DNA from: Candidatus Iainarchaeum sp. | GTDB lineage: Archaea; Iainarchaeota; Iainarchaeia; Iainarchaeales; Iainarchaeaceae | Direction: 5' to 3' | Assembly (NCBI GenBank): GCA_038895675.1 | Contig: JAWANB010000001.1 | Span: 31,443-95,442, forward strand | Length of the DNA: 64,000 nucleotides | Shown: positions 11,893 through 44,855 of the stretch, one piece after another | Numbering within the stretch: position 1 is the stretch's first letter | Layout of the letters: every line of letters begins with the position of its first letter | Notes under the pieces: generated by a model | What the model was told of the DNA's origin: nothing | What the model saw: the letters and a program-made list of their open reading frames with translations, nothing else | Database searches by the model: none | Position numbers and translations under genes: made by a program

Positions 11893-14800
11893 TGACGCTC
11901 ACCAAGAAAAAATTATTTGAAACTCTTATAGGCCTAATATCATAAGTCTGTTCACTGTAAAAATTTTGTGGATTCTTAGTTTCGTTAGTCAAGGTAAAAT
12001 ACAATGATTGATTCAAGTTGTTAGATCCAAGGTCCACTTTCGGATTTTCGTTATCTGAAAAACCAGTATAACACTTGTTTATTACTTTTACAATTTCTTT
12101 TGACTCAGAAAAGTCAAGCAAAACTCTTTTCGTGTTAGTATTATTCACAACTCTTTCAAGGCTTAAGCACGAATTGTTTGTTGTTGCTATTGCAAGTACA
12201 AACCCCAAATAAAATTCTCTTTGATCTTTTTTTGCATTTAAAAATATTGGATGAACTCCCAATTGTTTACCTTGAGTAATGCTCACTACTTCGGTTGCGT
12301 TATTCGATAACGTGAAATTAGTTTTTGAAATACTTATATCGCTTTCAGCGGCTTTTGACAATTTTATTTCCACTTCAGACCCACAATTATCATTTTTTAT
12401 GGTTATATTAACAGGCGTAGCATTACAAGAAGTGCCATTACAATTTCTTGAATTAAGCTCTATTTCAGTATTGGAAGGACTTTGCTCATCAACTTTTATG
12501 CACTCTAAACTAGGTTGAGTTGGTAAAAGAACTTCTTGTTGTGTTACTCTTAATTCTTTTGTTGCGCTAACATAATTATCTTTAGATGCAACAACCTCAA
12601 AAGTAGTTGAAACAGCATAACTTTGTGGAAAAATTATAGTGAATTGTCCTTGGCTATTTGTTTGGCCACCAATATTTAGTTTTGTTTTACTTTCACCTTC
12701 TTTTTCGAATACTTCTATTAATGCACCTTGTAAGGCTCTATTAGCGTTGTCCTTTGTAGTGGCAATGACAATTTCATTAGGCTGTGGTTTTATTGTGTCT
12801 TTATCTAAAGTCAAAAACAACTGGTTTAATGCTGAAATACTAAACAACATTTCTGCTTCTTTTCCTCTTTCTTCAACATTTAAGCTCATTTTTAGTTTTA
12901 TTGAATTAACTGGTTTCAATGCTGTTAATGTTAAGTTTAAAGTAGCTGTTTGATTAGGCGAAAGTCTACCTATTGAACCACTATTTGGAGTTATTTGTAT
13001 TGGGTTAGGATTTATAGTAGGTTCAATAGTGAAAGACATTTGAAGGTTTTCAAAAATTTTTTTAGTAGAATTCAATACTTCTATTGCTATGTCATATTGT
13101 TCATTTTCTCTTAATTCAATAGTTCCTTCGAGTGCATCACGCCATTCTCTAATATGACCATTTTGAGAGGATTTTATTTTAGCACTAATCAAAAATCCAC
13201 AATTACTAGTGCAAAAAGAAGAATTCAAAAAAGTAGTCCACAAGTAAAGCGAATTCCTGTTAGGCTTGTATTCTTCGTTATCGCCTTTCTTGGTTTTAAT
13301 TCCATACCTTAATTCTACTTTAGTGTTATTTTCTTGAGTATCTTCAACTTCCTTTATGAAAACATTAGCAAACACTATGTAGACACCATCATCAGCCGAG
13401 TTCAAAGACAAAATAGCTTGTTTCGCATCATTGTCCGTTGGAGAACAATCCTCATAATTGTTTTGGGGATTAAAGCAAGATGAATAAATAACGTTTAGGT
13501 TTGGTGAATCTATTCTTTTTATAACCATTGTGGAATTGTTTGCATTCAATTGATTTTCTAAGCTCGTCCTAATAACTGCTTTTACGTCGCTTTTTTCCGC
13601 TCTATCTACTATAAGATTAAATTTGAAGACATAGTTTTTGTTATCTTCAAGTCTTGAAACTTCTCTTCCAGAAGTATCTAAAACTTTGTCAAGAAGTATT
13701 TCAGCAGGCTTGAATTGTTGATTTTCAGGAATTGCTTTTAAAACAATTTCTATTGATTGAGTCGCATTAGGCAAAATTCTTACACTAGGATGCCTAGTAG
13801 TATAATAACCTTGTTTGCTAACCACTATCATTGGACTTTTATCTGCTGAAAACTCTTTTTTTTGCGTCCTGCCTTGTGCATTAGTAGTTTCTCTGCCAAT
13901 TTCTCTATTGTTTTCAACAAAAGAAACTGAGGCACCTTGTACAGGCCTATTGCTTTCATCAACGACCTTCACTTCAATAAAGCCATTTGAAATTACCAAA
14001 ACTATTTCTAACTGAATTTCACTACCTTTAGACAAAGATTTTTCTCCTGAAAAATTAGAATGCTCTTTGCCATTAATTTCTTTCAATGCTTTTGCTTTAT
14101 AATTTCCAGGCGGCAAATTAATGAATTCTATTAAGCCGTCTTTGTCTGTAAGTCCATCAGCAATAGGAAAAGAAAAGGCAGAAGAATAAAGAAAAACAGA
14201 AGCGTTTTGAACTTTGTTGCCTCCGTATTCAGAAACTATTACTTTAGCTTTGCCTGAATTATTTGAAGTTACCTTGTCTAACTTTACTATAGTAGGTTGA
14301 TTATTATTTGCAAACTTCAAATTATTAATTACTTTTAGCACATAATTAGGATGCGAAGCTATTACTAAGTATGCTTTTTCTTCTAAGCTAAGATTCTGAA
14401 AGTTGACTATTCCATCATTGTTTGACCTCAAAGAAACACTCTGTCTATTATTGGCTATTAATTGTGCAAAAACATTACTAATAGGATTGTCATTGCTTGA
14501 ATCAACAAATTTGATTAAAATTTTTTTAGCACTGTCTGTTTTTTTCATTCTTATTTCAACAGTATAAGGTTGATTTGAAGAAAATTGAGCATCAGCAATA
14601 GTGAATTCGTCGCTATAAGCAATACCATAAGTACTTCCAGAAGGAGGTCTTGCTTCAATAACATAAGTGCCAGCACTTACGTTTTCTACTATTTTAGAAC
14701 CTGAGTTGTCCGTCGTCCCGCCTTGGAAAGCAATTACTTCTCCTTTCAAGAAAGTCAAGTAAACTCCACTAATTGGCTGAGAAGTATCATGGTCCTTTAC

Positions 14801-15601
14801 TAATACTCTTACATTAGCAAGCAAAATTTCTTTTCTCAAATTCACTATAACAGTCCCTTCAGTAATCGCTAAGTCTATTGTCTTTCTAGTCTCTTCAAAG
14901 CCGCTTGCCCTAACCAAAGCAACCAAAGTTCCGCAAGCAGATTGCACGCTTACCCTATGAATTGCTCCTTTAGAATTAATGTTTGCAGGAACATACTTTG
15001 AATCAGAACAAGAAAAACTAATCGAGACAGAAGTGTTAGAACTAATTAGGCCTTTTTCATCTCTTAACTCATAAACTATTTGCTTGAGTTTTGAACTAAC
15101 AGATTTTTCAAGAGTAATTTTGTATAACTTTCTTGGCTCTATTTTAATTTCTTCTTCAAATGGCTTAAAGCCACTTGCTTTGACAGAAACTTTTGCTTTG
15201 TCCCCAAACAATTTAATTTTTGCTTCACCAAAAGAGTTTGTAGTCATACTTTCCTTAGCACTACCAACTTCAACTATTATTTCAGCGTTTTGAATTGGAT
15301 TTTCAGAATTATCCATTACCACTATTTTTGCACTATTATCTCCTGACCAAAAAGAAAAAAGTGAGGCAATCAGAGACCAAATAGCTTTTGAAATAGGTTC
15401 AAGAGGCCCTCCTTGATTACCAAAAAAAAGCAAAAGAATGAAAAAAAAGAGCAGGAAAACAAAAATTAAAACTAATACAAAAGAAGGAAAAACTCGGTCT
15501 ATTGGGTCAATTATTCTATACACAGGTATTTTTTCGTTAATTTTATCAAGGAATTCGTAATAGCGATCCTCAAAAAAATAATAAAAATCCTTCAATTCCA
15601 T
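11876..15601 (-). CDS. Giant surface protein (1241 aa) with multiple CarboxypepD_reg/transthyretin-like (PEGA-like) beta-sandwich repeats and an N-terminal TM anchor.
   Basis: N-terminal TM (FVLVLIFVFLLFFFILLLFF). Repeated modules of the type AKIVVMDNSENPIQNAEIIVEVG...SFGEAKIKL, KVQNASVFLYSS...DGLTDKDGLIEFINLPPGNYKAKA and VKVVDESNRPVQGASVSFVENNREIGRETTNAQG. Sequons are abundant. Confidence 0.65.
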   Translation of the reverse strand: MELKDFYYFFEDRYYEFLDKINEKIPVYRIIDPIDRVFPSFVLVLIFVFLLFFFILLLFFGNQGGPLEPISKAIWSLIASLFSFWSGDNSAKIVVMDNSENPIQNAEIIVEVGSAKESMTTNSFGEAKIKLFGDKAKVSVKASGFKPFEEEIKIEPRKLYKITLEKSVSSKLKQIVYELRDEKGLISSNTSVSISFSCSDSKYVPANINSKGAIHRVSVQSACGTLVALVRASGFEETRKTIDLAITEGTVIVNLRKEILLANVRVLVKDHDTSQPISGVYLTFLKGEVIAFQGGTTDNSGSKIVENVSAGTYVIEARPPSGSTYGIAYSDEFTIADAQFSSNQPYTVEIRMKKTDSAKKILIKFVDSSNDNPISNVFAQLIANNRQSVSLRSNNDGIVNFQNLSLEEKAYLVIASHPNYVLKVINNLKFANNNQPTIVKLDKVTSNNSGKAKVIVSEYGGNKVQNASVFLYSSAFSFPIADGLTDKDGLIEFINLPPGNYKAKALKEINGKEHSNFSGEKSLSKGSEIQLEIVLVISNGFIEVKVVDESNRPVQGASVSFVENNREIGRETTNAQGRTQKKEFSADKSPMIVVSKQGYYTTRHPSVRILPNATQSIEIVLKAIPENQQFKPAEILLDKVLDTSGREVSRLEDNKNYVFKFNLIVDRAEKSDVKAVIRTSLENQLNANNSTMVIKRIDSPNLNVIYSSCFNPQNNYEDCSPTDNDAKQAILSLNSADDGVYIVFANVFIKEVEDTQENNTKVELRYGIKTKKGDNEEYKPNRNSLYLWTTFLNSSFCTSNCGFLISAKIKSSQNGHIREWRDALEGTIELRENEQYDIAIEVLNSTKKIFENLQMSFTIEPTINPNPIQITPNSGSIGRLSPNQTATLNLTLTALKPVNSIKLKMSLNVEERGKEAEMLFSISALNQLFLTLDKDTIKPQPNEIVIATTKDNANRALQGALIEVFEKEGESKTKLNIGGQTNSQGQFTIIFPQSYAVSTTFEVVASKDNYVSATKELRVTQQEVLLPTQPSLECIKVDEQSPSNTEIELNSRNCNGTSCNATPVNITIKNDNCGSEVEIKLSKAAESDISISKTNFTLSNNATEVVSITQGKQLGVHPIFLNAKKDQREFYLGFVLAIATTNNSCLSLERVVNNTNTKRVLLDFSESKEIVKVINKCYTGFSDNENPKVDLGSNNLNQSLYFTLTNETKNPQNFYSEQTYDIRPIRVSNNFFLVSVNDFKK

Positions 15602-22391: not shown

Positions 22392-23573
22392 TTACAAAAA
22401 TTCATATATTCCGACACTAGGCTTACTTGTCTTTGAAAGTCTTTTAACATACCTTGTTTCTTGTTTTTCTTTTTCAAACCTTACTTTTTTTCCAACCAAA
22501 ATTTTTTTACCACAAACATACAACGCGTTATTTTTTCCTAAAGCACAATAAAACTTGCCAATTTTAGGCTTGTATTTTACCATTTTTGAATTTTTTAAAA
22601 GCGCAATAACATTTTTTGCTACTACCTTTGATTGGTCAACAGCATTTTGAGCAGTTTTCTGAATGCTTTCATTTTCCACTATACAAGCACAATCACCTAA
22701 ACCAAAAATAAAAGGATAAGTAGTACATTGCATAAAACTATTTACTAATAAGCCACCTCCAGGAGCGCCTCTTTCACCAAGCATTCCAGAGTAAGGAAGC
22801 GAGCTCTCTATTATTAGATCGTGAGTCCTTATGCCTCCAGCCCAAATTAGCGTATCACAACTAAACTCACTTCCGTCTCTACTAATAACTTTCTTATTAA
22901 AAATTTTCTTTGTATAAAAATTGCATACTACATCAATACTTGCTTTACTTAAATAATCAAGGACTAAAGAAGAAGCCTTGTCTGGCAGATTTGGCAAAAT
23001 TCTATTTGGACCATGCAAAATAGTTACTCTAAAGTTTTTTCTATTAAATCCGTTTTTTGCACATACAATATCAAGATGATCTTTCAAAGTAGTTGCTAAT
23101 TCTATTCCAGTTAGACCTGCACCACAAACAACAAAGTCATGTGGCTCATTTTTTTCAACACAATTTGAAATTCTCTCAAAAAGCTTTTCAGCGTCTTCTT
23201 TACTTTTCAACGCAAAAGCCTTTTCTTTTCCTTCTATGCCTGAATAATTGGTCAAAGCTCCAATTGCTAAAATAAGTACATCAAAACTAATTTTTTCAGA
23301 ATTTTTGGTTATAACAAACTTTTCTTTTGGCAAAATTTTTTTTACGGAATCATGGTAATAAACTATCTTGTACTTTTTTAATAAAGAAGGAATTAATAGA
23401 CAAGTGTCAGCCTCTGAAAGTTCTCCTGCCGCAACTTCATAAAGCAAAGGCGAAAAAGTAAAGCAGTCATCATCACTAACTAAAATTATTTCATTTTTTG
23501 ACAAATATTGCCTAAGTCTTAGAGCTGTTTCTATACCAGCAAAGCCTCCTCCTAAAATCAATATTTTTTGCAT
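22392..23573 (-). CDS. FAD-dependent pyridine-nucleotide oxidoreductase, type-II NADH dehydrogenase (NDH-2)-like.
   Basis: Two dinucleotide-binding motifs (ILILGGGFAGIE and VVCGAGLTGIELA) and a C-terminal GLGDCA. About 393 aa. Confidence 0.65.
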   Translation of the reverse strand: MQKILILGGGFAGIETALRLRQYLSKNEIILVSDDDCFTFSPLLYEVAAGELSEADTCLLIPSLLKKYKIVYYHDSVKKILPKEKFVITKNSEKISFDVLILAIGALTNYSGIEGKEKAFALKSKEDAEKLFERISNCVEKNEPHDFVVCGAGLTGIELATTLKDHLDIVCAKNGFNRKNFRVTILHGPNRILPNLPDKASSLVLDYLSKASIDVVCNFYTKKIFNKKVISRDGSEFSCDTLIWAGGIRTHDLIIESSLPYSGMLGERGAPGGGLLVNSFMQCTTYPFIFGLGDCACIVENESIQKTAQNAVDQSKVVAKNVIALLKNSKMVKYKPKIGKFYCALGKNNALYVCGKKILVGKKVRFEKEKQETRYVKRLSKTSKPSVGIYEFL

Positions 23574-28120: not shown

Positions 28121-29416
28121 CTATCTCCAATTTATTTTCAAAAAATGTGAAGCACAACTAAAACAAGGGTCATAAGCTCTAATCAATCTCTCTAATTCCA
28201 ACCTAACTTTTTCCTTGCCTTGGTCAAGATAAAGCGGTATTAGTTCTTTCAAATCATGCTCCATGTTTATTTGGTTTTGTTGACTTGGCGTACATATTTC
28301 AGCGTGTTTAATTATTCCTTTCTCGTCAATTTCAACCATGTAATAAAGCAATCCTCTCGGAGCTTCTATTGCTCCAATTCCTTTTCCACCAATCTTTTTT
28401 GGCAAAGGCTTTTCTTCTTGCTTGAACTCTAACGATTCCAGTAAATCTATTGAACTATCAATGCAATGAACTATTTCAATCGCTTGAGCCAAATTATTGT
28501 GAAAGACATCGTGAGAAGGAAAACAAGACAAAAATTTTGAACAATCTTTTTTAGTCTTCTTATTCAAAGAACCTCTATTCAAATTAAGCCTACTCAACGC
28601 ACCAACCCTATACCTTTGTCCTTCAAACTTAAAACCAGTGCTTTGAGAATAAGGAAGTATTACCCTTTCAACGTGGTTCCAATAATGTTTTTCAGGAATA
28701 CAATAACCTTCACTACTAATTATTTCACCACTCAAAAAATCAAAGTCTTCAGAACCAAGACAAACATAGTTTGAAGGACTCTCAAAATTTAATTCTTTTT
28801 CATAAAAAAGCTCTACTAAGTCTATTACTTTATCTCTTACTTCCAACAATTTTTTAGAAACTTCTTTCATAGATGACTTTTCAGGTAATTTTGCATAACT
28901 GCCAATCATAGCAAACATTCCATGAACAGCCCTTCCTAAGACAAGAGTTGACAAAGAATTGCCACTTGCTTTAACATCAAAACAATCTTTAATCCATTTC
29001 TCATCTTTGCCTTCAAGCTCTAATATAGAGTCTTTACCAAAAAGGTCAGGCAAAGAAAAAAGGTACAAGTGCATTGCATGATCCCTAATATTTAAACCAT
29101 ACATGGTTAATTTTCGCAAAAGTATTGTTTGCTCACTAGGTTCAATGGCTAACGCATTTTCGAAAGCTTCAATCGAACAATTAAGATGCGCAATACTACA
29201 AGTACCACAAATTCTTGAAACTAATTGTGGGACAGAATTGTAATGCTTACCTCTTATTGCTTGAGTATAAAACCTCTTATTTTCGTTGACTTTAAGCTTT
29301 AAATCTTCTACCTTGCTATTTCTTACTTTTATGTCCAGTTCTGCATGGCCTTCTATCTTAGAAATAGGGTCTATTACTAAGTCAAAGTCATGGTCATGTT
29401 CAAGCGAGCCGTGCAT
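28121..29416 (-). CDS. [NiFe]-hydrogenase large subunit (group 3-like).
   Basis: N-terminal L1 motif RICGTCSIAH and C-terminal L2 motif DPCFSCASH, followed by a short extension (FLKINWR) for proteolytic maturation. The track ORF starts 20 codons upstream. A Met at 29414-29416 abuts the small-subunit stop. Confidence 0.85.
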   Translation of the reverse strand: MHGSLEHDHDFDLVIDPISKIEGHAELDIKVRNSKVEDLKLKVNENKRFYTQAIRGKHYNSVPQLVSRICGTCSIAHLNCSIEAFENALAIEPSEQTILLRKLTMYGLNIRDHAMHLYLFSLPDLFGKDSILELEGKDEKWIKDCFDVKASGNSLSTLVLGRAVHGMFAMIGSYAKLPEKSSMKEVSKKLLEVRDKVIDLVELFYEKELNFESPSNYVCLGSEDFDFLSGEIISSEGYCIPEKHYWNHVERVILPYSQSTGFKFEGQRYRVGALSRLNLNRGSLNKKTKKDCSKFLSCFPSHDVFHNNLAQAIEIVHCIDSSIDLLESLEFKQEEKPLPKKIGGKGIGAIEAPRGLLYYMVEIDEKGIIKHAEICTPSQQNQINMEHDLKELIPLYLDQGKEKVRLELERLIRAYDPCFSCASHFLKINWR

Positions 29417-29417
29417 T

Positions 29418-29897
29418 TTATTCCACTCCAAATTCTTTAAAATAATTTTCCATAATTTGAATAAACTTTTCCTCAATTATAGGACAACCTGGCACTTCAG
29501 CATCAACTTTAATGTACTTTCCAATAGGCTCTACAGAAGGCAAATGACTAAATCTTTCTAAAATAGGCTTTATTTCTTCTAACCTTTCCTTGTCAAAAAA
29601 GTTTCTATTATTGCTTGGGCTTCCGTTTATTGCACAACTTCCAATAGCAACAACTTTTTTTGCCTTATCCCTTATTTCTTGCAAAAGCTTCAATTCTTTG
29701 CTATTAGAAATAGCTCCTTCTACAAAAGCAACGTCAAGGTCATTCATAGTGTTGTTGGCTTTTAAAATTCTTGCATAAACAAAATCAACCTTGTCTTTCC
29801 AATCCTTTAGCTTGTAATTCAATATTTCAACAAAAGTAATTACACAACCTTCATCACCAGTAAAAGAAAAAATTCCAACACGCAATTTCTTGCCCAT
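29418..29897 (-). CDS. [NiFe]-hydrogenase small subunit, truncated group-3 delta-like, with the proximal-cluster domain only.
   Basis: 159 aa. KLRVGIFSFTGDEGCVI, DVAFVEGAISNS...KKVVAIGSCAINGS and KYIKVDAEVPGCPI align to the N-terminal flavodoxin-like half of group-3 small subunits. The C-terminal medial/distal cluster domain is absent. The first Cys of the CxGC motif is Asp. Confidence 0.7.
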   Translation of the reverse strand: MGKKLRVGIFSFTGDEGCVITFVEILNYKLKDWKDKVDFVYARILKANNTMNDLDVAFVEGAISNSKELKLLQEIRDKAKKVVAIGSCAINGSPSNNRNFFDKERLEEIKPILERFSHLPSVEPIGKYIKVDAEVPGCPIIEEKFIQIMENYFKEFGVE

Positions 29898-29928
29898 TAT
29901 AATAAAGTACTACTTTTAGTATATTAAT

Positions 29929-30312
29929 TTATTTTGACTCAAATTCTTCTAATATTTTTACTACACCAGCAAAAACTTCTTTTTCATTAGCTTTTCTTGG
30001 CACGCAAATCAATTTTACTGAGTCAATAAGATTTGCTTTTTTCAACAACTTTAAAGTAATTCCTAAGTCAAAGTCATGTAAAGAAAAAATCTTATTAGTC
30101 AAAATTTTGTCAAGGTCCTCTAACAAGACAACATCTTTAATGCCTTCAGCAGAATCAATTATGATAAGATTTTTTCCTTCTAATTGTAAATCCTCGCTTG
30201 GATCGATTTCTTTAAACTCTATTTTTGGAAATACTTTTTTCAATTTTGGCAAAATTCTCAATGGTAAAGAATCGTACTTTAGCAATGGATTTCCAACAAT
30301 GAGAACCTTCAT
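29929..30312 (-). CDS. Hydrogenase maturation endopeptidase (HycI/HybD family).
   Basis: VLIVGNPLLKYDSLPLRI, IIIDSAEG and SLHDFDLGITLKLL match the HycI-type protease motifs. Confidence 0.65.
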   Translation of the reverse strand: MKVLIVGNPLLKYDSLPLRILPKLKKVFPKIEFKEIDPSEDLQLEGKNLIIIDSAEGIKDVVLLEDLDKILTNKIFSLHDFDLGITLKLLKKANLIDSVKLICVPRKANEKEVFAGVVKILEEFESK

Positions 30313-30352: not shown

Positions 30353-31273
30353 ATGAAAACCAATACAGGTATAATATTAGTTTTATGCACTGCTCTTGTA
30401 AGTGGCGTGTCTGTTTTTTTGAATTCTTTTGCTGTCCAACAAATAGACCCGTTTAATTTGACTTTTATAAGAAATTCTTTAGTCGCAATAATGCTTTTTT
30501 CAATAATAATACTTATTAAAGAATACAAGCATTTAGAAAAACTTAATTTTGACCAATGGAAAATTCTGTTTGCCATAGGCTTAATAGGTGGGAGCATACC
30601 ATTTTTACTTTTCTTTTATGCATTAAAATCAATTAGCTCCACTTCGGCTGGTTTTATTCACAAAACTTTATTCATTTATGTTGCCATTTTAGCAATGGTA
30701 TTTCTCAAAGAAAAACTTTCATTAAAATTTTGGTTTGGCGCATTACTAATTTTCTTAGGAAACCTCTTGCTTTTTTCAGGAGACCTGAAAGCAGATTTTC
30801 CATTTTTGTTAGTTTTTGTAGCCACGATACTTTGGGCAATTGAAAATGTCATTTCGAAATATGCAATAAAAGAAAAAGAAATTAGTCCTAATATAGTCGC
30901 TTTTGGCAGAATGTTTTTCGGTAGCATTTTCATGCTAATAATTTTATCTTCAATTGGAGCTATAAAAACACCAACTTTTGAAATAACTCAATGGCTATGG
31001 TTATTAGCAACAACAGCATTGTTGTTCTTGTATGTATTAACATATTACAATAGCCTAAAATACATAGAAGTGTCAAAAGCTTCTGCGATAATAATGTTAG
31101 CACAACCAATAACAGCTTTACTTTCTCTTTTATTTTTAGGAAAAAATCTGACTTTGCAACAAGGAATAGGTCTTACACTAATGGTAATAGGAGTTATACT
31201 AATAATAGGATTTCAATTTATATTTCAAAACTTTTCTTATAGGGGATCAATAGTTGCACAAAAAAGAAATTGA
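30353..31273 (+). CDS. EamA/DMT-family transporter.
   Basis: 306 aa with 10 hydrophobic helices forming two EamA repeats. Confidence 0.6.
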   Translation: MKTNTGIILVLCTALVSGVSVFLNSFAVQQIDPFNLTFIRNSLVAIMLFSIIILIKEYKHLEKLNFDQWKILFAIGLIGGSIPFLLFFYALKSISSTSAGFIHKTLFIYVAILAMVFLKEKLSLKFWFGALLIFLGNLLLFSGDLKADFPFLLVFVATILWAIENVISKYAIKEKEISPNIVAFGRMFFGSIFMLIILSSIGAIKTPTFEITQWLWLLATTALLFLYVLTYYNSLKYIEVSKASAIIMLAQPITALLSLLFLGKNLTLQQGIGLTLMVIGVILIIGFQFIFQNFSYRGSIVAQKRN

Positions 31274-31979
31274 AGGATTAAAAATTTTGTGCAAGTATTC
31301 AAGCATACCAAACAGCTTAGGGTATTGTGGAAAAGAAAATAGTTATGTTCTTTTCAACTCATTTCTAAAGAAACCAACAAAAGAAAAAGGCAAAAAAATA
31401 AAAAAAATAATCAAAACTTTTGTAGGTTTATCACCTTATTTACGAATTATATCAGACTCAAATGGCTTAACAGAATTTGATGAAGAAGTTGCACAAGCTT
31501 ATTGGTTAGGTAATAAGTTGCTTGACAACATTGACAAAGAAGAACTCAAAAAAATGATATTAGAAGATTTTACAAAACCTGGCATGTTGCCTTATTATAT
31601 TGCAGAACAAAAAGCCAATAATTTGAAATCAAAAGTTTTTCCAAACCACTCATTTCACGTTCTTTATATAAACTTTGTAACAAAAAAAGTAAAGCCAATT
31701 TTAAGCAATTTAAATAATTGTTTAATAAAACCAGCGATCTATAAAGACAAAAATTTTTTTATAACAACAAAATTATCCTTAGTCAAAGACAAGCTTGACC
31801 TAAAAAAGACTATTAAAAAATTTGAAACACAAAAAAAATGTTTTTCTGAAAAAATTTTTTCAACACATTGGAATACTCTAGTTGATGAAATAACTAAAGA
31901 AGAGCAAAAAAATTTGGAAAAATACACTAACAAAAATTTGAATTTAGCTAATTCTTGCTTGCAATCTTCCAAGAGTTAA
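31254..31979 (+). CDS. Hypothetical Lys-rich protein.
   Basis: 241-aa ORF with no recognisable domain. Its 3' end overlaps hypC convergently by 32 nt. Confidence 0.35.
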   Translation: MHKKEIEGLKILCKYSSIPNSLGYCGKENSYVLFNSFLKKPTKEKGKKIKKIIKTFVGLSPYLRIISDSNGLTEFDEEVAQAYWLGNKLLDNIDKEELKKMILEDFTKPGMLPYYIAEQKANNLKSKVFPNHSFHVLYINFVTKKVKPILSNLNNCLIKPAIYKDKNFFITTKLSLVKDKLDLKKTIKKFETQKKCFSEKIFSTHWNTLVDEITKEEQKNLEKYTNKNLNLANSCLQSSKS

Positions 31980-32163
31980 AAGCATTTTCTGCTGTTTCGC
32001 TATCTATTTTTTCGACTACTGTTTTTTGTTGTATCAAAACCCAATCCCCTTTTTTAGCCTTTATTAAATTATAAGCACTAACAATTTTTTTTCCATAACC
32101 TATTACTGCTATTTTACCTTTTTCTCTCAAACTTACTACTTTTCCAGGAACAGCTAAACACAT
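31948..32163 (-). CDS. hypC: Hydrogenase assembly chaperone HypC/HupF.
   Basis: Starts MCLAVPGKVV, the invariant N-terminal Cys-2 motif of HypC. 71 aa with a beta-barrel-type sequence. Confidence 0.85.
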   Translation of the reverse strand: MCLAVPGKVVSLREKGKIAVIGYGKKIVSAYNLIKAKKGDWVLIQQKTVVEKIDSETAENAFNSWKIASKN

Positions 32164-35101: not shown

Positions 35102-35374
35102 TTACAACACCTTAAAACCATTTTCACCTTTTGGGTTCTTAATTTCACTTTTTATTTCTTCCACTCTTGCTAAAAAAGGCCCTTTATAAAGTTCTTTTAG
35201 GAGTTCTTCCAAAGCTTTGGAATTTCCTTCTGCTACTACTTCAACGTCACCGTTAGGCAAATTTTTGGCATAACCATTAATGCCTAATTGGGCGGCTTTC
35301 AATTTTACAAATAACCTATAGCCGACACCTTGCACTCTGCCCTTGACCATTGCTTCAAGTCTTTGCTTAGTCAT
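35102..35374 (-). CDS. acyP: Acylphosphatase.
   Basis: VKGRVQGVGYRLFV...GYAKNLPNGDVEVVAEG is the acylphosphatase signature. Confidence 0.85.
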   Translation of the reverse strand: MTKQRLEAMVKGRVQGVGYRLFVKLKAAQLGINGYAKNLPNGDVEVVAEGNSKALEELLKELYKGPFLARVEEIKSEIKNPKGENGFKVL

Positions 35375-37277: not shown

Positions 37278-38165
37278 TTAATTTTTCAAACCGCATTTTT
37301 CAAGCAGGTTTTCATAATTAAGATTAGCTTGTCTTTGTATATGTTCTACTTGCTCTTCGCTTAAATGCTTAAACCTTTTTTGTAGTTCGAGATATTCCTT
37401 TACAGGCCTTGGATTTGAAGGATTAAAGTTTAGTTTGTACTTTCCATTTTCAACCTCGTATAAAAACCATAGCCTAGATTGAACCGCAAGTTTTGCAACT
37501 TTCATTGTTATTCCCCCATCAAAACCAGCGCCAAGACAACAAGGAGCATCAACAACAACAAACGATGGCCCTTTTACTTCTTTTGCTTTTCTTAATTTCA
37601 TTTGAAAGTCTGCATAATAAGCTATTGAAGCAGAAGCTGCATAACTTATACCATGAGCAGCAACTATTTCAACTATTGGCTTTCTCTCGGTCTCTTTTCC
37701 TTTATGCACTGCACCAACATTAGTAGTTGTTGTTGCCGCACCATAGGGAGTTGCACCAGATTTTTGAACACCAGTATTAGCATACAATTGATTGTCATAG
37801 CAAACATAAAGAACATTATCTCCTCTTTCAAGCATTCCGCTCAAAGCACCAAAGCCAATGTCATATGTTGCACCATCACCGGCTATAACAACTACTTTCG
37901 TATGATTATTTCCTTTTGCTTTCAAAGCTGCTGCTACTCCAGAAGCTACGGCTGGAGCGTTTTGGAAAAGAGAATGAATGTAAGGTACACGCCATGCACT
38001 CTCAGGATATTGTGAAGAAGTTATTTCCATGCACCCTGTTGCCTGAACAATTATAATATCTTTCCCTAAAGTATCACAAACTTGTATTAACGCATTGCTT
38101 GGACCACAGCCAGGACAACCACTATGGCCAGGAGAATAAAGGTGCATTTCAGATTGCATACTCAT
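37278..38165 (-). CDS. porB: Pyruvate/2-oxoacid:ferredoxin oxidoreductase beta subunit (TPP-binding).
   Basis: CPGCGP and GDGATYDIGFGALSG (TPP motif). Operon order is G-D-A-B. Confidence 0.9.
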   Translation of the reverse strand: MSMQSEMHLYSPGHSGCPGCGPSNALIQVCDTLGKDIIIVQATGCMEITSSQYPESAWRVPYIHSLFQNAPAVASGVAAALKAKGNNHTKVVVIAGDGATYDIGFGALSGMLERGDNVLYVCYDNQLYANTGVQKSGATPYGAATTTTNVGAVHKGKETERKPIVEIVAAHGISYAASASIAYYADFQMKLRKAKEVKGPSFVVVDAPCCLGAGFDGGITMKVAKLAVQSRLWFLYEVENGKYKLNFNPSNPRPVKEYLELQKRFKHLSEEQVEHIQRQANLNYENLLEKCGLKN

Positions 38166-38167
38166 AA

Positions 38168-39316
38168 TTATCCCTTCATAGTAGCCTTAGGAGGCTCTGT
38201 CGCGATCCACTTTCTAACAGGCTTGCCTTTTAATTGTTCAAACATATCTCTTATATGTTGCCTTTTTATTCCTCGTCCGCCCAAGCCGCCAAAAAAGCTT
38301 GAAACCTCTGAATTTCTACCAACAGCCTCAAAAACTTCAGAGTAAAGTGGAGCACAAGAACCTATGCTTAAACACCTGTCTATTACCCCGACTTTTTTTC
38401 CACTCAAAAACCTTACTAATTCCTCTCTTGGAAAAGGCCTCAAAACTCGCACATGCAAAGCACCTACTTTTTCTCCTTTTTCTCTTAGCTCATCAACAAC
38501 AATCATAACATTATCCATTACTGAACCCAAACCAACTATTACTCTTTCAGCGTCTTCTACTTTATAGGCATTCACAAGTCCATAAGTTCTGCCTGTTAAA
38601 GCACCCCACTTTTTTCCAGCTTCAACAATTAGTTCTTTTGCAATTTCCATGTCTTTAACAAGATCTTCTCTAAACATTTGATAATGAGTTGGGTTAGCAT
38701 AAACTCCCAAACTAACAGGGTTCTCTGGATCAAGTTCCAAAGGATACTTGTAAGGAGCCAAAAATTCTTGCACCTTATTTTCATCAGCAACGTCAACTTG
38801 TTCAACAGCATGTGTCAAGTAGTGACCATCAACACAAACCATAACTGGCAAAAGTATTTTTTCTGCAACATAAAAGGCTTGAGGAATAGCATCAACAGCC
38901 TCTTGATTATTTTTACAATAAATTTGAATCCAACCAGTATCCCTTTGACTTACAGAATCTTGTTCATCATTCCAAATGTTCAAAGGAGAACTAACAGCCC
39001 TATTACCAACAAGCATCACTATTGGCAACCTCATACCAGCTGCACTAAAAAGTGGTTCGTGCATGTAAAGCAAACCTTGGCCACCTGTAGTAGTAAAGGT
39101 TCTTGCACCAGCAGCGCTTGCGCCTATTAGTGCAGAAATAGCAGAAAATTCAGCCTCTACAGTAATGTATTCAGGAATCTTGCCATCAGCATAATACTTG
39201 TTTAGCTCTTCAGTTAAATGAGTAGTAGGGGTAATAGGGTAACAAGCAACCACTTGGGGTTTACAATTAACTACCATTTCGCCAATAACCCTAGCGCCTT
39301 CCTTAGTCTTAATCAT
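38168..39316 (-). CDS. porA: Pyruvate/2-oxoacid:ferredoxin oxidoreductase alpha subunit.
   Basis: VVACYPITPTTHLTEEL, GGQGLLYMHEP and the 382-aa length are typical of POR/VOR alpha. Confidence 0.9.
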   Translation of the reverse strand: MIKTKEGARVIGEMVVNCKPQVVACYPITPTTHLTEELNKYYADGKIPEYITVEAEFSAISALIGASAAGARTFTTTGGQGLLYMHEPLFSAAGMRLPIVMLVGNRAVSSPLNIWNDEQDSVSQRDTGWIQIYCKNNQEAVDAIPQAFYVAEKILLPVMVCVDGHYLTHAVEQVDVADENKVQEFLAPYKYPLELDPENPVSLGVYANPTHYQMFREDLVKDMEIAKELIVEAGKKWGALTGRTYGLVNAYKVEDAERVIVGLGSVMDNVMIVVDELREKGEKVGALHVRVLRPFPREELVRFLSGKKVGVIDRCLSIGSCAPLYSEVFEAVGRNSEVSSFFGGLGGRGIKRQHIRDMFEQLKGKPVRKWIATEPPKATMKG

Positions 39317-39570
39317 TGTTGATCATCCTCTACTCTAACCATTTCAATGCATTTTACAGGGCACTCATTAGCACAAATACTACAACCTTTGCAATACTCA
39401 TAATCTATTTCAGGTATTTTTTTTACAACACCCATTATTCCTTCAGGACAAAAATTTTGACAAATTCCACATTTAATACACTTATCGCCATTTACTAATG
39501 GCATGTAAGCTTTCCATTCTCCAGTTTTGTTTGAAGTACTAGAACCAGGTTTTGCATAAGGAATAATCAA
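39313..39570 (-). CDS. porD: Pyruvate:ferredoxin oxidoreductase delta subunit (2x[4Fe-4S] ferredoxin).
   Basis: CIKCGICQNFCP and CKGCSICANECP. Confidence 0.9.
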   Translation of the reverse strand: MIIPYAKPGSSTSNKTGEWKAYMPLVNGDKCIKCGICQNFCPEGIMGVVKKIPEIDYEYCKGCSICANECPVKCIEMVRVEDDQQ

Positions 39571-40136
39571 GCTTTCACCCCAACATTAACAACCTGCATC
39601 GTATCATAAACCTCTTGAATAGCATTAATGTTCGCTTCAACAACTTGTTGAGGAAACTTGTTTCCTAAAACTTCACGAATAGCCCTCTTTACAGATTCTA
39701 TTTTTACTATGCCTGTGACTTTACACAAAGCCCCTAACATAACCGTGTTCAAAATAAGTTTCTTAAAATGCTTTAACGCAACACTACTTGCGTCAACAGT
39801 AAAAACATTTTTAGCTTTTATATCCAATTCACTTGGTTTTTTATTAGTGTTCACAATAACAACTCCATTTTCTTTTAAACCAGCACAAACATCAACTTCA
39901 GACATGATGGAAGGATCAGCAACAACTACAATGTCTGGCTCTGCTATTTCTTCATGAATCTGAATAGGCTTATCATCTATTCTTACATAAGCTTCTACAG
40001 GAGGTCCTCGTTTTTCAGAACCAAAAAAAGGAAAAGCTTGACTAAATTTTCCCTCATAGTTAGCAGCTTGAGCAATTATGTCAGCACCAGTAACCATGCC
40101 ATGGCCTGCCCTTGCATGAAGCCTTATTTCTTTCAT
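39567..40136 (-). CDS. porG: Pyruvate:ferredoxin oxidoreductase gamma subunit.
   Basis: IRLHARAGHGMVTGADIIAQAA...FGSEKRGPPVEAYVRI is a POR gamma signature. Confidence 0.9.
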   Translation of the reverse strand: MKEIRLHARAGHGMVTGADIIAQAANYEGKFSQAFPFFGSEKRGPPVEAYVRIDDKPIQIHEEIAEPDIVVVADPSIMSEVDVCAGLKENGVVIVNTNKKPSELDIKAKNVFTVDASSVALKHFKKLILNTVMLGALCKVTGIVKIESVKRAIREVLGNKFPQQVVEANINAIQEVYDTMQVVNVGVKA

Positions 40137-43883: not shown

Positions 43884-44855
43884 TCATTTTTGCGTACTTT
43901 TCTCAAGGAATGAAACATACTCATGCATTACTTCTTCAAGCTTTGGAACCTTAAACCTTTTTTCACCAATCCATTCGTTGCATACACTTGCGTACATGTT
44001 TGAAACAATCTTCACTAATTCCTCTGGGAGTTTAGGTGGCACAGGCCAAACTCCTTTTTCAAGTTTTTTTGCCTTAGCTTCTTCTAATTGCTTATACCAA
44101 TCCAGTTTTTTGTAATAATCCCTACAAACTTGCTTGCTTACATGAATGTTATTCCACAAAAACCTATTTTCATCCAACGTTCCGCAAACATCAACAAGCA
44201 TTATTTCGTTTTTAGGAGTTATAGCAAATTCTACTTTACCATCAGCATGTTCAAGTCCTAAAGAGTTTGCTTTTTCTGTTATAAAATCATTTATGTTCAA
44301 AACGGCTTCTTTGATTTCGTACATTTGATCTTCGGTTATCTTAGAAATTTCTAAAGCCTCATCCCAAGAAAGATACCTGTCTGTAGGTTCAAGTTTTGTG
44401 CTAACATCAATAAAAGCCTTTTCAAATTTATGCCCGGGCTTTGGCTCTTCTGTCAAACCAAGGTCATCTAAAGTCAATTCACCATTTTGAAGCCTTTTAA
44501 AAACTGAACTTCCTTCAGGCAAAGTATTTCTAAAAATTATTTCAAGAGGAACAAGGTAATTAGTTGTTTCTTCATAAATTTTATGAATTGATGGATTAAG
44601 AACTCTTACAAGATTTACTTCCATTTTAGTTCCAGAAATCATTTTTCTAAAATGTGTTTTTATTCCAAACTTTGATTCTATTTGCTTAAAATTATAAGAC
44701 GCCTGTCTACACAAAGACTCGCCTTTATAAGGTATTTTGTCTGGCATTTTACCATAATCAAAAACGCTATAATCATCAGTAAACTCAAAAACGCCAACAC
44801 CCATTTTGTCTTCGGTTGGCTCTTTTTCAACTATCAAATTTTTGACAGAACCCAT
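43884..44855 (-). CDS. purC: SAICAR synthetase (long form).
   Basis: VGVFEFTDDYSVFDYGKMPDKIPYKGESLCRQASYNFKQIESKFGIKTHF and LVPLEIIFRN are PurC ATP-grasp-like signatures. Confidence 0.7.
   Translation of the reverse strand: MGSVKNLIVEKEPTEDKMGVGVFEFTDDYSVFDYGKMPDKIPYKGESLCRQASYNFKQIESKFGIKTHFRKMISGTKMEVNLVRVLNPSIHKIYEETTNYLVPLEIIFRNTLPEGSSVFKRLQNGELTLDDLGLTEEPKPGHKFEKAFIDVSTKLEPTDRYLSWDEALEISKITEDQMYEIKEAVLNINDFITEKANSLGLEHADGKVEFAITPKNEIMLVDVCGTLDENRFLWNNIHVSKQVCRDYYKKLDWYKQLEEAKAKKLEKGVWPVPPKLPEELVKIVSNMYASVCNEWIGEKRFKVPKLEEVMHEYVSFLEKSTQK

What the first reader, a model, noticed from the sequence alone, without database searches (positions are those of the whole stretch)
28121..30312. Minimal two-subunit [NiFe] hydrogenase cassette without an electron-transfer partner.
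The large subunit has both Ni-binding motifs intact (RICGTCSIAH, DPCFSCASH) and a cleavable C-terminal extension. It is followed by a maturation protease, and HypC lies 1.6 kb away. The locus therefore looks functional.

The only other subunit is a 159-aa small subunit equivalent to the proximal-cluster half of group-3 delta subunits. No FrhB, MvhD/Hdr, HoxFU, HydBG-type or membrane (group 4) subunits are adjacent.

How electrons leave a single proximal cluster is unclear. Candidates are ferredoxin, or the FNR-like flavoprotein at 3889..4584. Such a stripped-down hydrogenase could be a fermentative H2-evolving enzyme.
Basis: partly seen in the sequence, partly recalled or inferred. Interest (0 to 1): 0.65.

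Follow-up and report, generated by a model that had tools for sequence, protein, structure and literature searches.

The report
Minimal two-subunit nickel-iron hydrogenase
This small archaeon carries a real, stripped-down two-protein hydrogen enzyme of a type already noted in ultra-small bacteria, widespread in nature, whose electron partner is still unknown.

Summary
On the minus strand lie a short HybD/HycI-type maturation protease (30312..29929), a 159-aa small subunit (29897..29418) and a 431-aa [NiFe] large subunit (29416..28121). The large subunit has both Ni-binding motifs and a 7-residue C-terminal extension. HypC is 1.6 kb away.

No beta/gamma, HoxFU, FrhB, Mvh/Hdr or membrane subunit gene is in the 64-kb window or within 10 kb in 80 related loci.

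The cassette is not unique. 578 loci in species-representative genomes encode relatives (Iainarchaeota incl. AR10, Micrarchaeota, Aenigmatarchaeota, Woesearchaeota, Nitrososphaeraceae, Patescibacteria). The small subunit is always truncated (81/81 readable loci). This matches 'hyd2', the group-3b-related clade with truncated small subunits described in CPR bacteria (Jaffe 2020), function unresolved.

New details:
- The window's small subunit has only three Cys, plus Asp15 at a canonical ligand position.
- The neighbouring DUF6390 protein has a HypC-like domain.
- Relatives sometimes have an operonic or fused flavoprotein (TrxR, FNR-like, NuoF-like) or a small ferredoxin.

Best reading: a free-standing soluble hydrogenase exchanging electrons in trans, most likely at ferredoxin level. 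The partner is inferred, not shown. It is a new archaeal member of a known kind; interest is moderate.

The parts
28121..29416 (-). [NiFe]-hydrogenase large (catalytic) subunit, 431 aa, group-3b-related. It has the L1 motif RICGTCSIAH and the L2 motif DPCFSCASH, plus a 7-aa C-terminal extension FLKINWR.
   Evidence: PF00374 at 5e-24. NCBIfam ShyA scores 243 bits, the best hit but below the 700-bit cutoff. PDB 5yxy_A matches at 1e-61, with 30% identity. Catalytic residues are invariant in 15 relatives, and the extension H-F-L-K-x-x-W is conserved. The ATG at 29416 lies 1 nt after the small-subunit stop.
29418..29897 (-). Truncated small subunit, 159 aa. It contains only the N-terminal flavodoxin-like, proximal-cluster domain. 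Likely ligands are Asp15 (or Glu16), Cys18, Cys88 and Cys138. There is no medial or distal cluster domain.
   Evidence: PF01058 at 1.5e-21. It aligns to residues 3-147 of the 261-aa P. furiosus delta subunit. The truncation is conserved in 81/83 loci; the other 2 are cut by contig ends. The conserved tail Y-[LF]-K-E-F-G-[VI] ends the protein.
29929..30312 (-). Short (127 aa) HybD/HycI-type hydrogenase maturation endopeptidase. It is presumed to remove the C-terminal extension of the large subunit.
30353..31273 (+). EamA/DMT-family transporter, divergent from the hydrogenase operon and co-operonic with DUF6390. It is a conserved neighbour of unknown role.
   Evidence: PF00892 at 5.7e-46. Found in 33/83 loci, usually adjacent. 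The same order is seen in AR10 (L004), in L002, and in L163/L164.
31254..31979 (+). DUF6390 protein, 241 aa: a helical N-domain plus a HypC-like beta-barrel C-domain. Cys156 aligns with the essential Cys2 of HypC. It is a candidate maturation factor specific to this hydrogenase type.
31948..32163 (-). HypC/HupF-family chaperone, 71 aa, N-terminus MCLAVPG.
   Evidence: PF01455 at 2.7e-12, 47 bits against a 28.5-bit cutoff. TIGR00074 at 2.9e-9. Found in 23-24 of 83 loci.
3889..4584 (-). FNR-family flavoprotein, 231 aa, with FAD- and NAD(P)H-binding domains and no Fe-S domain. It is a candidate trans-acting partner, but the link is weak.
   Evidence: NCBIfam BenC-type reductase at 5e-33, hydrogenase gamma-type models at 1e-14 to 4e-20. 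Homologues sit directly upstream of the small subunit in L044, L048 and L117, and nearby in L059, L078 and L060. Against this, only 1 of 80 FNR-like loci has a hydrogenase, and the closest orthologues are merely syntenic with SOD, ScpB and RNase HII. In L059 the homologue is co-operonic with a dihydroorotate dehydrogenase, which suggests a PyrK-like role.
37278..40136 (-). Four-subunit 2-oxoacid (pyruvate):ferredoxin oxidoreductase. Subunits: gamma 40136..39567, delta 39570..39313, alpha 39316..38168, beta 38165..37278. It is a candidate source of low-potential electrons.
   Evidence: Pfam POR, POR_N/PFOR_II and TPP_enzyme_C hits. The delta subunit has two CxxCxxCxxxCP motifs. It is not a conserved neighbour: only 1 of 82 other loci has it.

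Best explanation
The locus encodes a functional, soluble, free-standing alpha-delta-type [NiFe] hydrogenase of the group-3b-related 'hyd2' clade.

Maturation:
- The large subunit is matured with the help of HypC, probably the HypC-like DUF6390 protein, and further Hyp proteins encoded elsewhere.
- Its 7-residue C-terminal tail is then cut off by the dedicated short HybD/HycI-type protease.
- It pairs with a small subunit reduced to the proximal-cluster domain.

Electron transfer:
- The medial and distal clusters and the beta/gamma diaphorase module are absent. The single proximal cluster (three Cys plus Asp15 in this organism) is therefore the electron entry and exit point.
- It must trade electrons in trans with a separately encoded soluble partner.
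- The most likely currency is ferredoxin-level reductant. 2-oxoacid:ferredoxin oxidoreductase would pass electrons, via a small ferredoxin or directly, to the proximal cluster and on to the NiFe site, releasing H2. This would make the enzyme a redox valve for a fermentative DPANN archaeon.

What is shown: gene content, intact catalytic and maturation motifs, conservation of the truncated architecture, and absence of co-located partner subunits.

What is inferred: exposure of the cluster, the identity of the partner, and the direction of catalysis.
For: - Intact, conserved active-site and maturation features.
- The truncated small subunit is universal: 81/81 readable loci, and the family ends at a conserved tail.
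- In the 1.84-billion-protein representative library, the best ~30 matches are 150-176 aa. Canonical 240-270-aa delta subunits appear only at 96 bits or lower.
- No beta/gamma or other Fe-S subunit family recurs within 10 kb in 83 loci.
- The protease (78/83 loci) and the HypC/DUF6390 module are conserved, which argues for an enzyme that is made and matured.
- Experimental precedent: an engineered P. furiosus SHI alpha-delta heterodimer is highly active, no longer uses NADPH, and takes electrons directly from pyruvate:ferredoxin oxidoreductase without a carrier (PMC3200332).
- A four-subunit 2-oxoacid:ferredoxin oxidoreductase lies 8 kb away.
- A Fer4_15 single-cluster ferredoxin lies next to the hydrogenase in 6 relatives. 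In L059 it is co-operonic with the protease, and in L053 and L067 it lies about 400 bp downstream of the large subunit.
- Asp ligation of a proximal cluster has a precedent in group 3 (FrhG Asp60, PMC3591093).
Against: - No ferredoxin gene other than the POR delta subunit is in the 64-kb window.
- POR is not a conserved neighbour: 1 of 82 other loci.
- The partner genes that are actually fused to, or operonic with, the small subunit in relatives are flavoproteins, not ferredoxins.
- The clade also occurs in Nitrososphaeraceae, which do not ferment.
- No hypA/B/D/E/F was seen in the window, in 10 kb beyond each end of it, or near any DPANN locus. Complete maturation is therefore assumed, not shown.
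- No structure of the heterodimer could be modelled, so cluster exposure is inferred from homology only.
Confidence: 0.45

Rival explanations
1. Flavoprotein-coupled minimal hydrogenase. A separately encoded FAD protein docks directly on the truncated small subunit and takes over the job of the beta/gamma module. In this genome that would be the FNR-like protein at 3889..4584, or a TrxR-type protein encoded elsewhere. The system would then interconvert H2 and NAD(P)H as a redox valve, with the flavin acting as the 1e-/2e- converter next to the single cluster.
For: - Rosetta-stone fusions exist. P0257 is a TrxR domain plus linker plus truncated small subunit, 48% identical to the window's small subunit. 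P0267 is a NuoF-like FMN/[4Fe-4S] domain plus P/T-rich linker plus truncated small subunit.
- TrxR lies directly upstream on the same strand in L053 and L067. L067 has the same G-D-E-G-C motif as the window.
- FNR-like lies directly upstream, with a 3-bp gap, in L044 and L048, and also in L117.
- A flavoprotein lies within 3 kb in about 17 of 83 loci.
- Jaffe 2020 also saw PF07992 flavoproteins near CPR hyd2.
- G6PD and 6PGD (NADPH sources) lie just beyond the window's left edge on the same contig.
Against: - No flavoprotein is adjacent in the window, in AR10, or in most loci.
- Reverse test: only 1 of 80 FNR-like loci carries a hydrogenase, and the closest orthologues of the window's FNR-like gene never do.
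- In L059 the FNR-like gene is co-operonic with dihydroorotate dehydrogenase, suggesting a PyrK-like housekeeping role.
- Three unrelated flavoprotein types argue against one fixed partner.
- Loci are phylogenetically non-independent, with roughly 5-6 independent arrangements.
- The fusions may be read-through gene calls.
Confidence: 0.28
2. H2-uptake enzyme feeding thiol and oxidative-stress defence. Electrons would flow from H2 through the hydrogenase, via ferredoxin or directly, to a thioredoxin reductase with the CxxC motif, then to thioredoxin and on to enzymes such as MsrB and peroxiredoxins. This would use trace H2 to keep thiols reduced in organisms with little NADPH supply or with exposure to O2.
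For: - TrxR with an intact redox-active CxxC is fused (P0257) or operonic (L053, L067) with the small subunit. In L059 TrxR is co-transcribed with HypC.
- Ferredoxin and TrxR occur together in L053, L067 and L059.
- The clade is present in aerobic-lineage Nitrososphaeraceae.
- MsrB lies 1.2 kb from the hydrogenase in the window and in L003.
Against: - It applies to a minority of loci.
- No TrxR is in the window.
- MsrB adjacency is seen only in the closest relative and one other locus.
- It is wholly inferential, and no biochemical precedent for an H2:thioredoxin system was retrieved.
Confidence: 0.1
3. An ordinary heterotetrameric group-3b (sulf)hydrogenase whose beta and gamma genes simply lie elsewhere in the genome.
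For: - The large subunit's best HMM and PDB matches are 3b.
- The literature labels relatives as 3b and NADPH-coupled.
- Only 64 kb plus 20 kb of this genome could be inspected.
Against: - The small subunit lacks the whole C-terminal ferredoxin-like domain with the medial and distal clusters, which wire delta to beta in solved 3b structures. The truncation is fixed across the clade.
- None of 83 loci has a beta/gamma-like gene within 10 kb.
- The large subunit is only 30% identical to T. kodakarensis 3b and far below the NCBIfam 3b cutoffs, at 243 against 700 bits.
- The clade sits on a long branch.
Confidence: 0.05
4. A non-catalytic remnant, or a protein that cannot be matured because the reduced genome lacks HypD/E/F.
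For: - No hypA/B/D/E/F is within reach of any DPANN locus.
- One proximal-cluster Cys is missing in the window's small subunit.
Against: - All four Ni/Fe cysteines and the E-G-H and E-A-P-R-G motifs are invariant across 15-80 sequences at only 51-83% overall identity.
- A dedicated protease, HypC and DUF6390 are retained.
- The 3-Cys+Asp variant recurs in at least 6 separate genomes.
- The family has 578 loci in species-representative genomes.
Confidence: 0.07

Closest known systems
'hyd2' group-3b-related [NiFe] hydrogenases of CPR bacteria (Jaffe et al. 2020, BMC Biol, PMC7304191)
   Same: - 3b-related large subunit on a long branch.
- Small subunit consistently truncated: mean 164 aa there, 159 aa here.
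- HypC-like gene nearby and no co-located beta/gamma.
- Occasional PF07992 flavoprotein and an Fe-S protein in the neighbourhood.
- Function stated as uncertain.
- Saccharibacteria and Patescibacteria loci (L031, L037, L079) fall inside the same clade at 52-55% identity, with 154-155-aa small subunits.
   Different: - Described only for CPR bacteria. Here the host is a DPANN archaeon (Iainarchaeota/'Diapherotrites').
- Most of the clade's diversity found here is archaeal, including Nitrososphaeraceae.
- Identity of this clade with hyd2 is inferred from shared features and bin labels. It was not tested against the published alignment.
Group 3b NADP-coupled (sulf)hydrogenases: P. furiosus SHI and T. 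kodakarensis Hyh (PDB 9nez, 5yxy)
   Same: - Closest solved and curated relatives of both subunits.
- Cytoplasmic.
- Short C-terminal extension on the large subunit.
- Same L1/L2 motifs.
   Different: - Those enzymes are alpha-beta-gamma-delta tetramers with a ~260-aa delta subunit carrying three clusters, plus an Fe-S beta subunit and an FAD/[2Fe-2S] gamma subunit.
- Here there is no beta or gamma, delta is cut to the proximal domain, identity is only 30%, and scores are far below the equivalog cutoffs.
Engineered alpha-delta heterodimer of P. furiosus SHI (Hopkins et al. 2011, PMC3200332)
   Same: A two-subunit 3b-type enzyme. It is active, does not use NADPH, and accepts electrons directly from pyruvate:ferredoxin oxidoreductase. 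It is a functional model for how a natural alpha-delta enzyme could work.
   Different: It is man-made and retains the full-length delta subunit with three clusters. The natural enzyme here has one cluster.
HoxH-HoxY module of group 3d NAD-reducing hydrogenases (PDB 5xf9, 7t2r)
   Same: The small subunit (HoxY, 179-189 aa) also carries only the proximal cluster.
   Different: - HoxY hands electrons to the HoxFU diaphorase, which is encoded in the same operon.
- The large-subunit match is much weaker: 96-104 bits against 212 for 3b.
- No HoxFU is present here. One distant relative, P0267, does have a NuoF-like domain fused to the small subunit.
FrhG of F420-reducing hydrogenase (group 3a)
   Same: It is a precedent for a proximal [4Fe-4S] cluster with an Asp in place of one Cys ligand (Asp60; PMC3591093).
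   Different: FrhG keeps a C-terminal ferredoxin domain with two more clusters and works with FrhB. Whether the Asp occupies the same ligand position was not determined.

Membership tests
[NiFe]-hydrogenase large subunit (PF00374) | N-terminal RxCGxCxxxH and C-terminal DPCxxCxxH/R motifs that provide the four Ni/Fe cysteines | tested here: met
   RICGTCSIAH (68-77) and DPCFSCASH (416-424). PF00374 at 85.5 bits against a 25.8-bit cutoff. The residues are invariant in relatives.
[NiFe]-hydrogenase large subunit (PF00374) | C-terminal extension removed by a specific endopeptidase after Ni insertion | tested here: inconclusive
   A 7-aa extension is present and conserved, and a HybD-like protease is encoded alongside. 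Cleavage itself cannot be tested in silico.
Group 3b (NADP-coupled / sulfhydrogenase) | Large subunit groups with 3b references | tested here: inconclusive
   The best matches are 3b: ShyA at 243 bits, HydA at 218 and 5yxy at 212, against FrhA at 125, VhuA at 120 and 3d at 96-104. But all are far below the equivalog cutoffs of 700 and 880 bits, identity is 30%, and the branch in an NJ tree is long. HydDB itself was not available; the literature reports 3b for AR10 and LFWA-III.
Group 3b (NADP-coupled / sulfhydrogenase) | Heterotetramer with an Fe-S beta subunit (HydB) and an FAD/NAD(P)H/[2Fe-2S] gamma subunit (HydG) encoded with alpha and delta | tested here: not met
   None is in the 64-kb window or within 10 kb in 83 loci. 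Whole genomes were not scanned.
Group 3b (NADP-coupled / sulfhydrogenase) | Delta subunit of ~240-260 aa carrying proximal, medial and distal clusters | tested here: not met
   The protein is 159 aa and has only 3 Cys in total. It aligns only to residues 3-147 of the 261-aa P. furiosus delta subunit.
'hyd2' 3b-related clade (Jaffe 2020) | Truncated small subunit (~164 aa) next to a 3b-related large subunit | tested here: met
   159 aa here, and the truncated form is present in 81/83 related loci.
'hyd2' 3b-related clade (Jaffe 2020) | HypC-like gene in the neighbourhood; no co-located beta/gamma; occasional PF07992 flavoprotein or Fe-S protein | tested here: met
   HypC is 1.6 kb away. There is no beta/gamma. 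TrxR-type PF07992 proteins and a Fer4_15 ferredoxin occur in subsets of relatives.
'hyd2' 3b-related clade (Jaffe 2020) | Phylogenetic placement with the published CPR hyd2 sequences | not tested
   The published alignment was not available. Loci labelled Saccharibacteria or Patescibacteria fall inside the clade, but the bin labels are unverified.
Group 3d (HoxHY + HoxFU) | NuoE/F/G-like diaphorase subunits HoxF/HoxU in the operon | tested here: not met
   Absent from the window and from related loci. The large-subunit match to 3d structures is weaker than the match to 3b.
Group 4 membrane-bound hydrogenases | NuoH/L-like membrane subunits and a NuoB-type small subunit | tested here: not met
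   No membrane subunits are adjacent. NuoB models score only 17-27 bits against 62-71 bits for the group-3 small-subunit models.
HybD/HycI hydrogenase maturation endopeptidase (PF01750) | Conserved fold with three metal ligands (Glu/Asp16, Asp62, His93 in E. coli HybD) | tested here: met
   [not shown]
HypC/HupF chaperone (PF01455) | ~70-90 aa OB-fold protein beginning Met-Cys | tested here: met
   The protein begins MCLAVPGK and is 71 aa. It scores 47 bits against a 28.5-bit cutoff.

The most novel reading that the evidence does not exclude
This is a natural, ultra-minimal [NiFe] hydrogenase: one catalytic subunit plus a one-cluster, Asp-ligated small subunit. It would act as a 'plug-and-play' H2 module that docks directly onto interchangeable soluble partners (ferredoxin, TrxR, FNR-like or NuoF-like flavoproteins) in DPANN archaea, CPR bacteria and soil Nitrososphaeraceae. 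It would be matured with the help of a previously unrecognised HypC-fusion protein (DUF6390). In some lineages this would amount to an H2:thioredoxin or H2:NAD(P) system with no intervening Fe-S wire.
Probability: 0.25. Interest if true: 0.7.

Novelty: new member of a known kind. Interest (0 to 1): 0.45.

Why it matters
If active, this enzyme family is the [NiFe] counterpart of the minimal [FeFe] hydrogenases recently shown to work in DPANN archaea. It would be the smallest natural [NiFe] hydrogenase architecture, and therefore attractive for engineering.

It also matters for ecology:
- Metagenomic surveys currently label these genes 'group 3b, NADPH-coupled'.
- The subunits that confer NADPH coupling are missing from the loci, so H2 budgets inferred for DPANN, CPR and some Nitrososphaeraceae may be mis-assigned.

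Two side observations give concrete, testable handles on how such a reduced system is matured and wired:
- DUF6390 appears to be a HypC-like maturation factor.
- Relatives carry fused or operonic flavoproteins.

Tried and rejected
1. A HypD homologue search seeded from a Nitrososphaeraceae locus was meant to show whether DPANN carriers have Hyp genes. It returned only Nitrososphaerales, Nitrosocaldus and Sulfolobales proteins, so it was uninformative for DPANN.

2. I walked 10 kb beyond both window ends on the source contigs to look for hyp or partner genes. None were found. The left flank has Fe-S assembly genes, G6PD and 6PGD; the right flank has surface proteins.

3. Reverse neighbourhood test for the FNR-like protein in metagenomes: 1 of 80 loci has the hydrogenase. 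FNR-like is therefore rejected as a general, fixed partner.

4. The NDH-2-like flavoprotein (22392..23573), MsrB, SOD and POR were tested as conserved neighbours. None is conserved.

5. A single-sequence PDB search with the protease gave no meaningful hit. A profile and a fold search were needed.

As a result, no alignment-based model of the small subunit and no heterodimer model could be made, and cluster exposure was not modelled.

7. Rfam scan of the window: only one tRNA, no rRNA for taxonomy. Taxonomy rests on source labels.

8. The promoter/terminator scan was not above shuffled expectation.

9. Literature searches for hyp genes in AR10 or Iainarchaeota found nothing usable.


Full report
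**What is in the window**

On the minus strand there are three tightly packed ORFs:
- 30312..29929, 127 aa
- 29897..29418, 159 aa
- an ORF ending at 28121

The last is listed from a TTG at 29476. An ATG at 29416 lies one base after the small-subunit stop codon, and relatives start there. The large subunit is therefore 431 aa.

The window is about 31% G+C. A protein 100% identical to the large subunit is named by NCBI as coming from a 'Candidatus Diapherotrites archaeon' MAG. The same genes occur in assemblies GCA_038889715.1 and GCA_038894155.1. The host is therefore a DPANN archaeon (Iainarchaeota).

**Large subunit**

- It matches PF00374.
- It is closest to group-3b enzymes. NCBIfam ShyA scores 243 bits and HydA 218, against FrhA at 125 and VhuA at 120.
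- PDB T. kodakarensis 3b (5yxy) matches at 1e-61, MvhA at 2e-47 and 3d enzymes at about 1e-27.
- Identity to the T. kodakarensis enzyme is only 30%, and the scores are far below NCBIfam's equivalog cutoffs.
- RICGTCSIAH, DPCFSCASH, the E-G-H motif and the E-A-P-R-G motif are all present and invariant in 15 relatives.
- After His424 come seven residues (FLKINWR). Unusually for such extensions, H-F-L-K-x-x-W is conserved in the clade.

**Small subunit**

- It matches PF01058.
- Residues 4-149 align to residues 3-147 of the 261-aa P. furiosus delta subunit. The whole ferredoxin-like C-terminal half, which holds the medial and distal clusters, is missing.
- The protein contains only three cysteines (C18, C88, C138). 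Asp15 aligns with the first Cys of the canonical CxxC.
- Across 67 relatives this first ligand motif is polymorphic:
  - T-C-C-E-D-S
  - T-C-D-E-G-C
  - T-[G/S/A]-D-E-G-C (the window, AR10, and several Micrarchaeota and Aenigmatarchaeota)
- The 3-Cys+Asp form recurs in at least six genomes, so it is not a sequencing error.
- An Asp ligand of the proximal cluster has a precedent in FrhG (PMC3591093).

**Protease**

The 127-aa protein is only a marginal Pfam HycI hit (E=0.0027, below the cutoff) and gives no single-sequence PDB hit. Other evidence supports the assignment:
- 25 of 31 relatives hit HycI, best 3e-6.
- A family profile ranks E. coli HybD and two related proteases first in the PDB.
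- D14, D53 and H79 are invariant and align with the HybD metal-ligand positions.

It is a shortened HybD/HycI-type protease. In this window it is the first gene of the operon, not the last.

**Maturation neighbours**

- HypC (32163..31948) passes its Pfam cutoff.
- Between HypC and the hydrogenase lie an EamA transporter (30353..31273) and a DUF6390 protein (31254..31979).
- DUF6390 has invariant C25, G26, H132, C156 and H205.
- Profile-profile comparison aligns its C-terminal domain, starting at Cys156, with HypC starting at Cys2 (probability 94%, E 1.4e-7).
- DUF6390 is therefore a HypC-like fusion protein and a likely maturation factor.

**Is a partner nearby?**

All ORFs of the window were read, the flanking genes were scanned, and Fe-S motifs were searched.
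- There is no HydB/HydG, HoxF/U, FrhB, MvhD/Hdr or membrane subunit.
- The only Fe-S motif protein is the delta subunit of a four-subunit 2-oxoacid:ferredoxin oxidoreductase at 37278..40136.
- No hypA/B/D/E/F is in the window or in 10 kb beyond either end.

**How general is the architecture?**

- A scan of one genome per species (GTDB) found 578 loci encoding relatives.
- The best 80 (51-83% identity) come from Iainarchaeota (including the complete AR10 genome, 65% identity), Micrarchaeota, Aenigmatarchaeota, Woesearchaeota, Nitrososphaera/Nitrososphaeraceae (contigs up to 1.8 Mb) and Saccharibacteria/Patescibacteria.
- By tblastn, the truncated small subunit covers the full 159-aa query and ends at the start of the large gene in 81 of 83 loci. 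The other two are cut by contig ends. The protease is in 78 of 83 loci.
- The family ends at a conserved Y-[LF]-K-E-F-G-[VI] tail.
- In a library of 1.84 billion representatives, the best ~30 matches to the small subunit are 150-176 aa. Ordinary 240-270-aa delta subunits appear only at 96 bits or lower.
- Unbiased clustering of all neighbouring ORFs gave these recurrent families: large (80 loci), protease (76), small (68 by ORF calling), EamA (33), DUF6390 (24) and HypC (24). No beta/gamma-like family appeared.
- HypD/E/F are nearby only in the Nitrososphaeraceae loci.
- An NJ tree puts the whole clade on a long branch from T. kodakarensis 3b and groups the window with L003 and AR10. The Nitrososphaeraceae and the CPR sequences each form one group nested among DPANN sequences (NJ only, no support values).

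**What is already published**

- Jaffe et al. 2020 (PMC7304191) described a 3b-related clade in CPR bacteria, 'hyd2'. It has consistently truncated small subunits (mean 164 aa against 250), HypC-like genes nearby and no co-located beta/gamma. They also reported occasional PF07992 flavoproteins and an Fe-S family in the neighbourhood, and concluded that 'its function remains uncertain'.
- Relatives in Micrarchaeota and AR10 have been classified by HydDB as group 3b and assumed to be NADPH-coupled (PMC8561730).
- The data set that probably contains this MAG treats 3b/3d enzymes as NAD(P)H redox valves (PMC11094006).
- A 2023 review of ammonia-oxidising archaea does not mention this enzyme in Nitrososphaera (PMC10432482).
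- The architecture is therefore known. Its archaeal breadth and the details found here are not described in the papers retrieved.

**Clues to the partner**

Flavoproteins:
- A thioredoxin-reductase-type protein with an intact CxxC lies directly upstream of the small subunit on the same strand in L053 and L067. It is nearby in six more loci.
- A TrxR-like protein lacking CxxC lies about 1.9 kb away in five loci.
- An FNR-like protein homologous to window 3889..4584 lies 3 bp upstream of the small subunit in L044 and L048, and is also directly upstream in metagenome locus L117. It is nearby in L059, L078 and L060.
- Two 'Rosetta-stone' proteins exist. P0257 is TrxR plus linker plus truncated small subunit. 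P0267 is a NuoF-like FMN/[4Fe-4S] domain plus P/T-rich linker plus truncated small subunit.

Ferredoxin:
- A small Fer4_15 ferredoxin is near the hydrogenase in six loci.
- In L059 it is co-operonic with the protease, and in L053 and L067 it lies about 400 bp downstream of the large subunit.

Cautions:
- Only 1 of 80 FNR-like loci from metagenomes carries a hydrogenase. The closest orthologues of the window's FNR-like gene are merely syntenic with SOD, ScpB and RNase HII.
- In L059 the FNR-like gene is co-operonic with a dihydroorotate dehydrogenase, suggesting a PyrK-like role.
- The loci are phylogenetically non-independent.
- None of these genes is adjacent in the window.
- POR, MsrB, SOD and the NDH-2-like flavoprotein are not conserved neighbours.

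**Mechanism**

Shown:
- An intact catalytic subunit, a one-cluster small subunit, a dedicated protease, HypC and a HypC-like DUF6390.
- A fixed, widespread two-subunit architecture without co-located electron-transfer subunits.

Inferred:
- With the medial/distal domain gone, the proximal cluster is the only redox relay and must contact a soluble partner directly.

An engineered P. furiosus alpha-delta heterodimer is active, ignores NADPH and takes electrons straight from pyruvate:ferredoxin oxidoreductase (PMC3200332). This shows such an enzyme can work at the ferredoxin level.

I therefore favour ferredoxin/POR-level coupling and H2 evolution as a fermentative redox valve in this DPANN archaeon (confidence 0.45). 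Direct coupling to a trans-encoded flavoprotein is the main rival (0.28) and is the one backed by the gene fusions. An H2-to-thioredoxin route is a more speculative variant (0.10). A canonical tetramer with distant beta/gamma genes (0.05) and a dead or unmaturable relic (0.07) are unlikely.

**Verdict**

- The object is a new (archaeal) member of an already described kind, and its biochemistry remains an open, testable question.
- Interest is moderate (0.45).

Noticed in passing
[not shown]
   Followed up: partly
L017-L019, L022, L032, L033, L040, L049, L055, L065, L072, L077 (Nitrososphaera/Nitrososphaeraceae contigs, up to 1.8 Mb): The same two-subunit hydrogenase, with the convergent protease, occurs in Nitrososphaeraceae genomes. 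There it is flanked by hypD, hypE and hypF. A 2023 review of ammonia-oxidising archaea lists only Ehr-type complexes for Nitrososphaera. In an NJ tree these sequences form one group nested among Aenigmatarchaeota-like sequences, which suggests lateral transfer.
   Followed up: partly
P0257 (500 aa) and P0267 (702 aa), from the representative search with window 29418..29897: These are natural fusion proteins. P0257 is a thioredoxin-reductase domain (with CxxC) plus linker plus truncated small subunit. P0267 is a NuoF-like FMN/[4Fe-4S] domain plus Pro/Thr-rich linker plus truncated small subunit. They hint at direct flavoprotein partners. Their genomic origin could not be looked up.
   Followed up: partly
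window 29844..29864 (small-subunit residues 12-18) and the same position in L001-L082: The first proximal-cluster ligand motif is polymorphic within one clade: T-C-C-E-D-S (NuoB-like tandem Cys), T-C-D-E-G-C, and T-[G/S/A]-D-E-G-C. Glu16 is nearly invariant. The consequences for cluster type and potential are unknown.
   Followed up: partly
window 28121..28144 (C-terminal extension of the large subunit): The extension that is presumably cleaved off (H|FLK[V/I]xW) is conserved across the clade. This is unusual for hydrogenase C-terminal extensions.
   Followed up: no
window 35102..35374; L001, L005-L007, L011, L034, L035, L043, L058: A stand-alone ~90-aa acylphosphatase (PF00708, the family that also matches the N-terminus of the ~750-770-aa HypF-sized proteins in the Nitrososphaeraceae loci) lies 2-4.4 kb from the hydrogenase in about 9-10 DPANN loci. 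It is 5.6 kb away in the window. No HypF was seen in any DPANN locus.
   Followed up: no
window 28121..30312 compared with L004 (AR10) 9517..11651: In nearly all relatives the protease gene is immediately downstream of, and convergent with, the small-large pair. In this window the small-large pair is inverted relative to AR10, so that protease, small and large form one co-directional operon.
   Followed up: yes
L165/L166 (same contig as the window, 8-10 kb beyond window position 1): Glucose-6-phosphate dehydrogenase and 6-phosphogluconate dehydrogenase (an NADPH-producing oxidative pentose-phosphate branch), plus IscA- and Mrp/ParA-type Fe-S assembly genes, lie just outside the window. There are no hyp genes.
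   Followed up: no
L059 6726..15728 (Woesearchaeota): This locus is a 'redox island' around the hydrogenase. It contains TrxR co-transcribed with HypC, DUF6390, EamA, the small and large subunits, the protease, a Fer4_15 ferredoxin, a Rieske ferredoxin, and an FNR-like protein co-operonic with dihydroorotate dehydrogenase.
   Followed up: partly
window 6890..15601: Three consecutive very large ORFs (1091, 576 and 1241 aa) have N-terminal hydrophobic segments and no family assignment from the precomputed Pfam hits. They are probably surface or S-layer-like proteins.
   Followed up: no
window 43884..51741: An almost complete purine-biosynthesis gene cluster (PurC-like, PurA, PurE-like, PurH, PurN, PurM, PurB), judged by reading the translations. 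This is notable for a DPANN genome and was not verified with profile searches.
   Followed up: no
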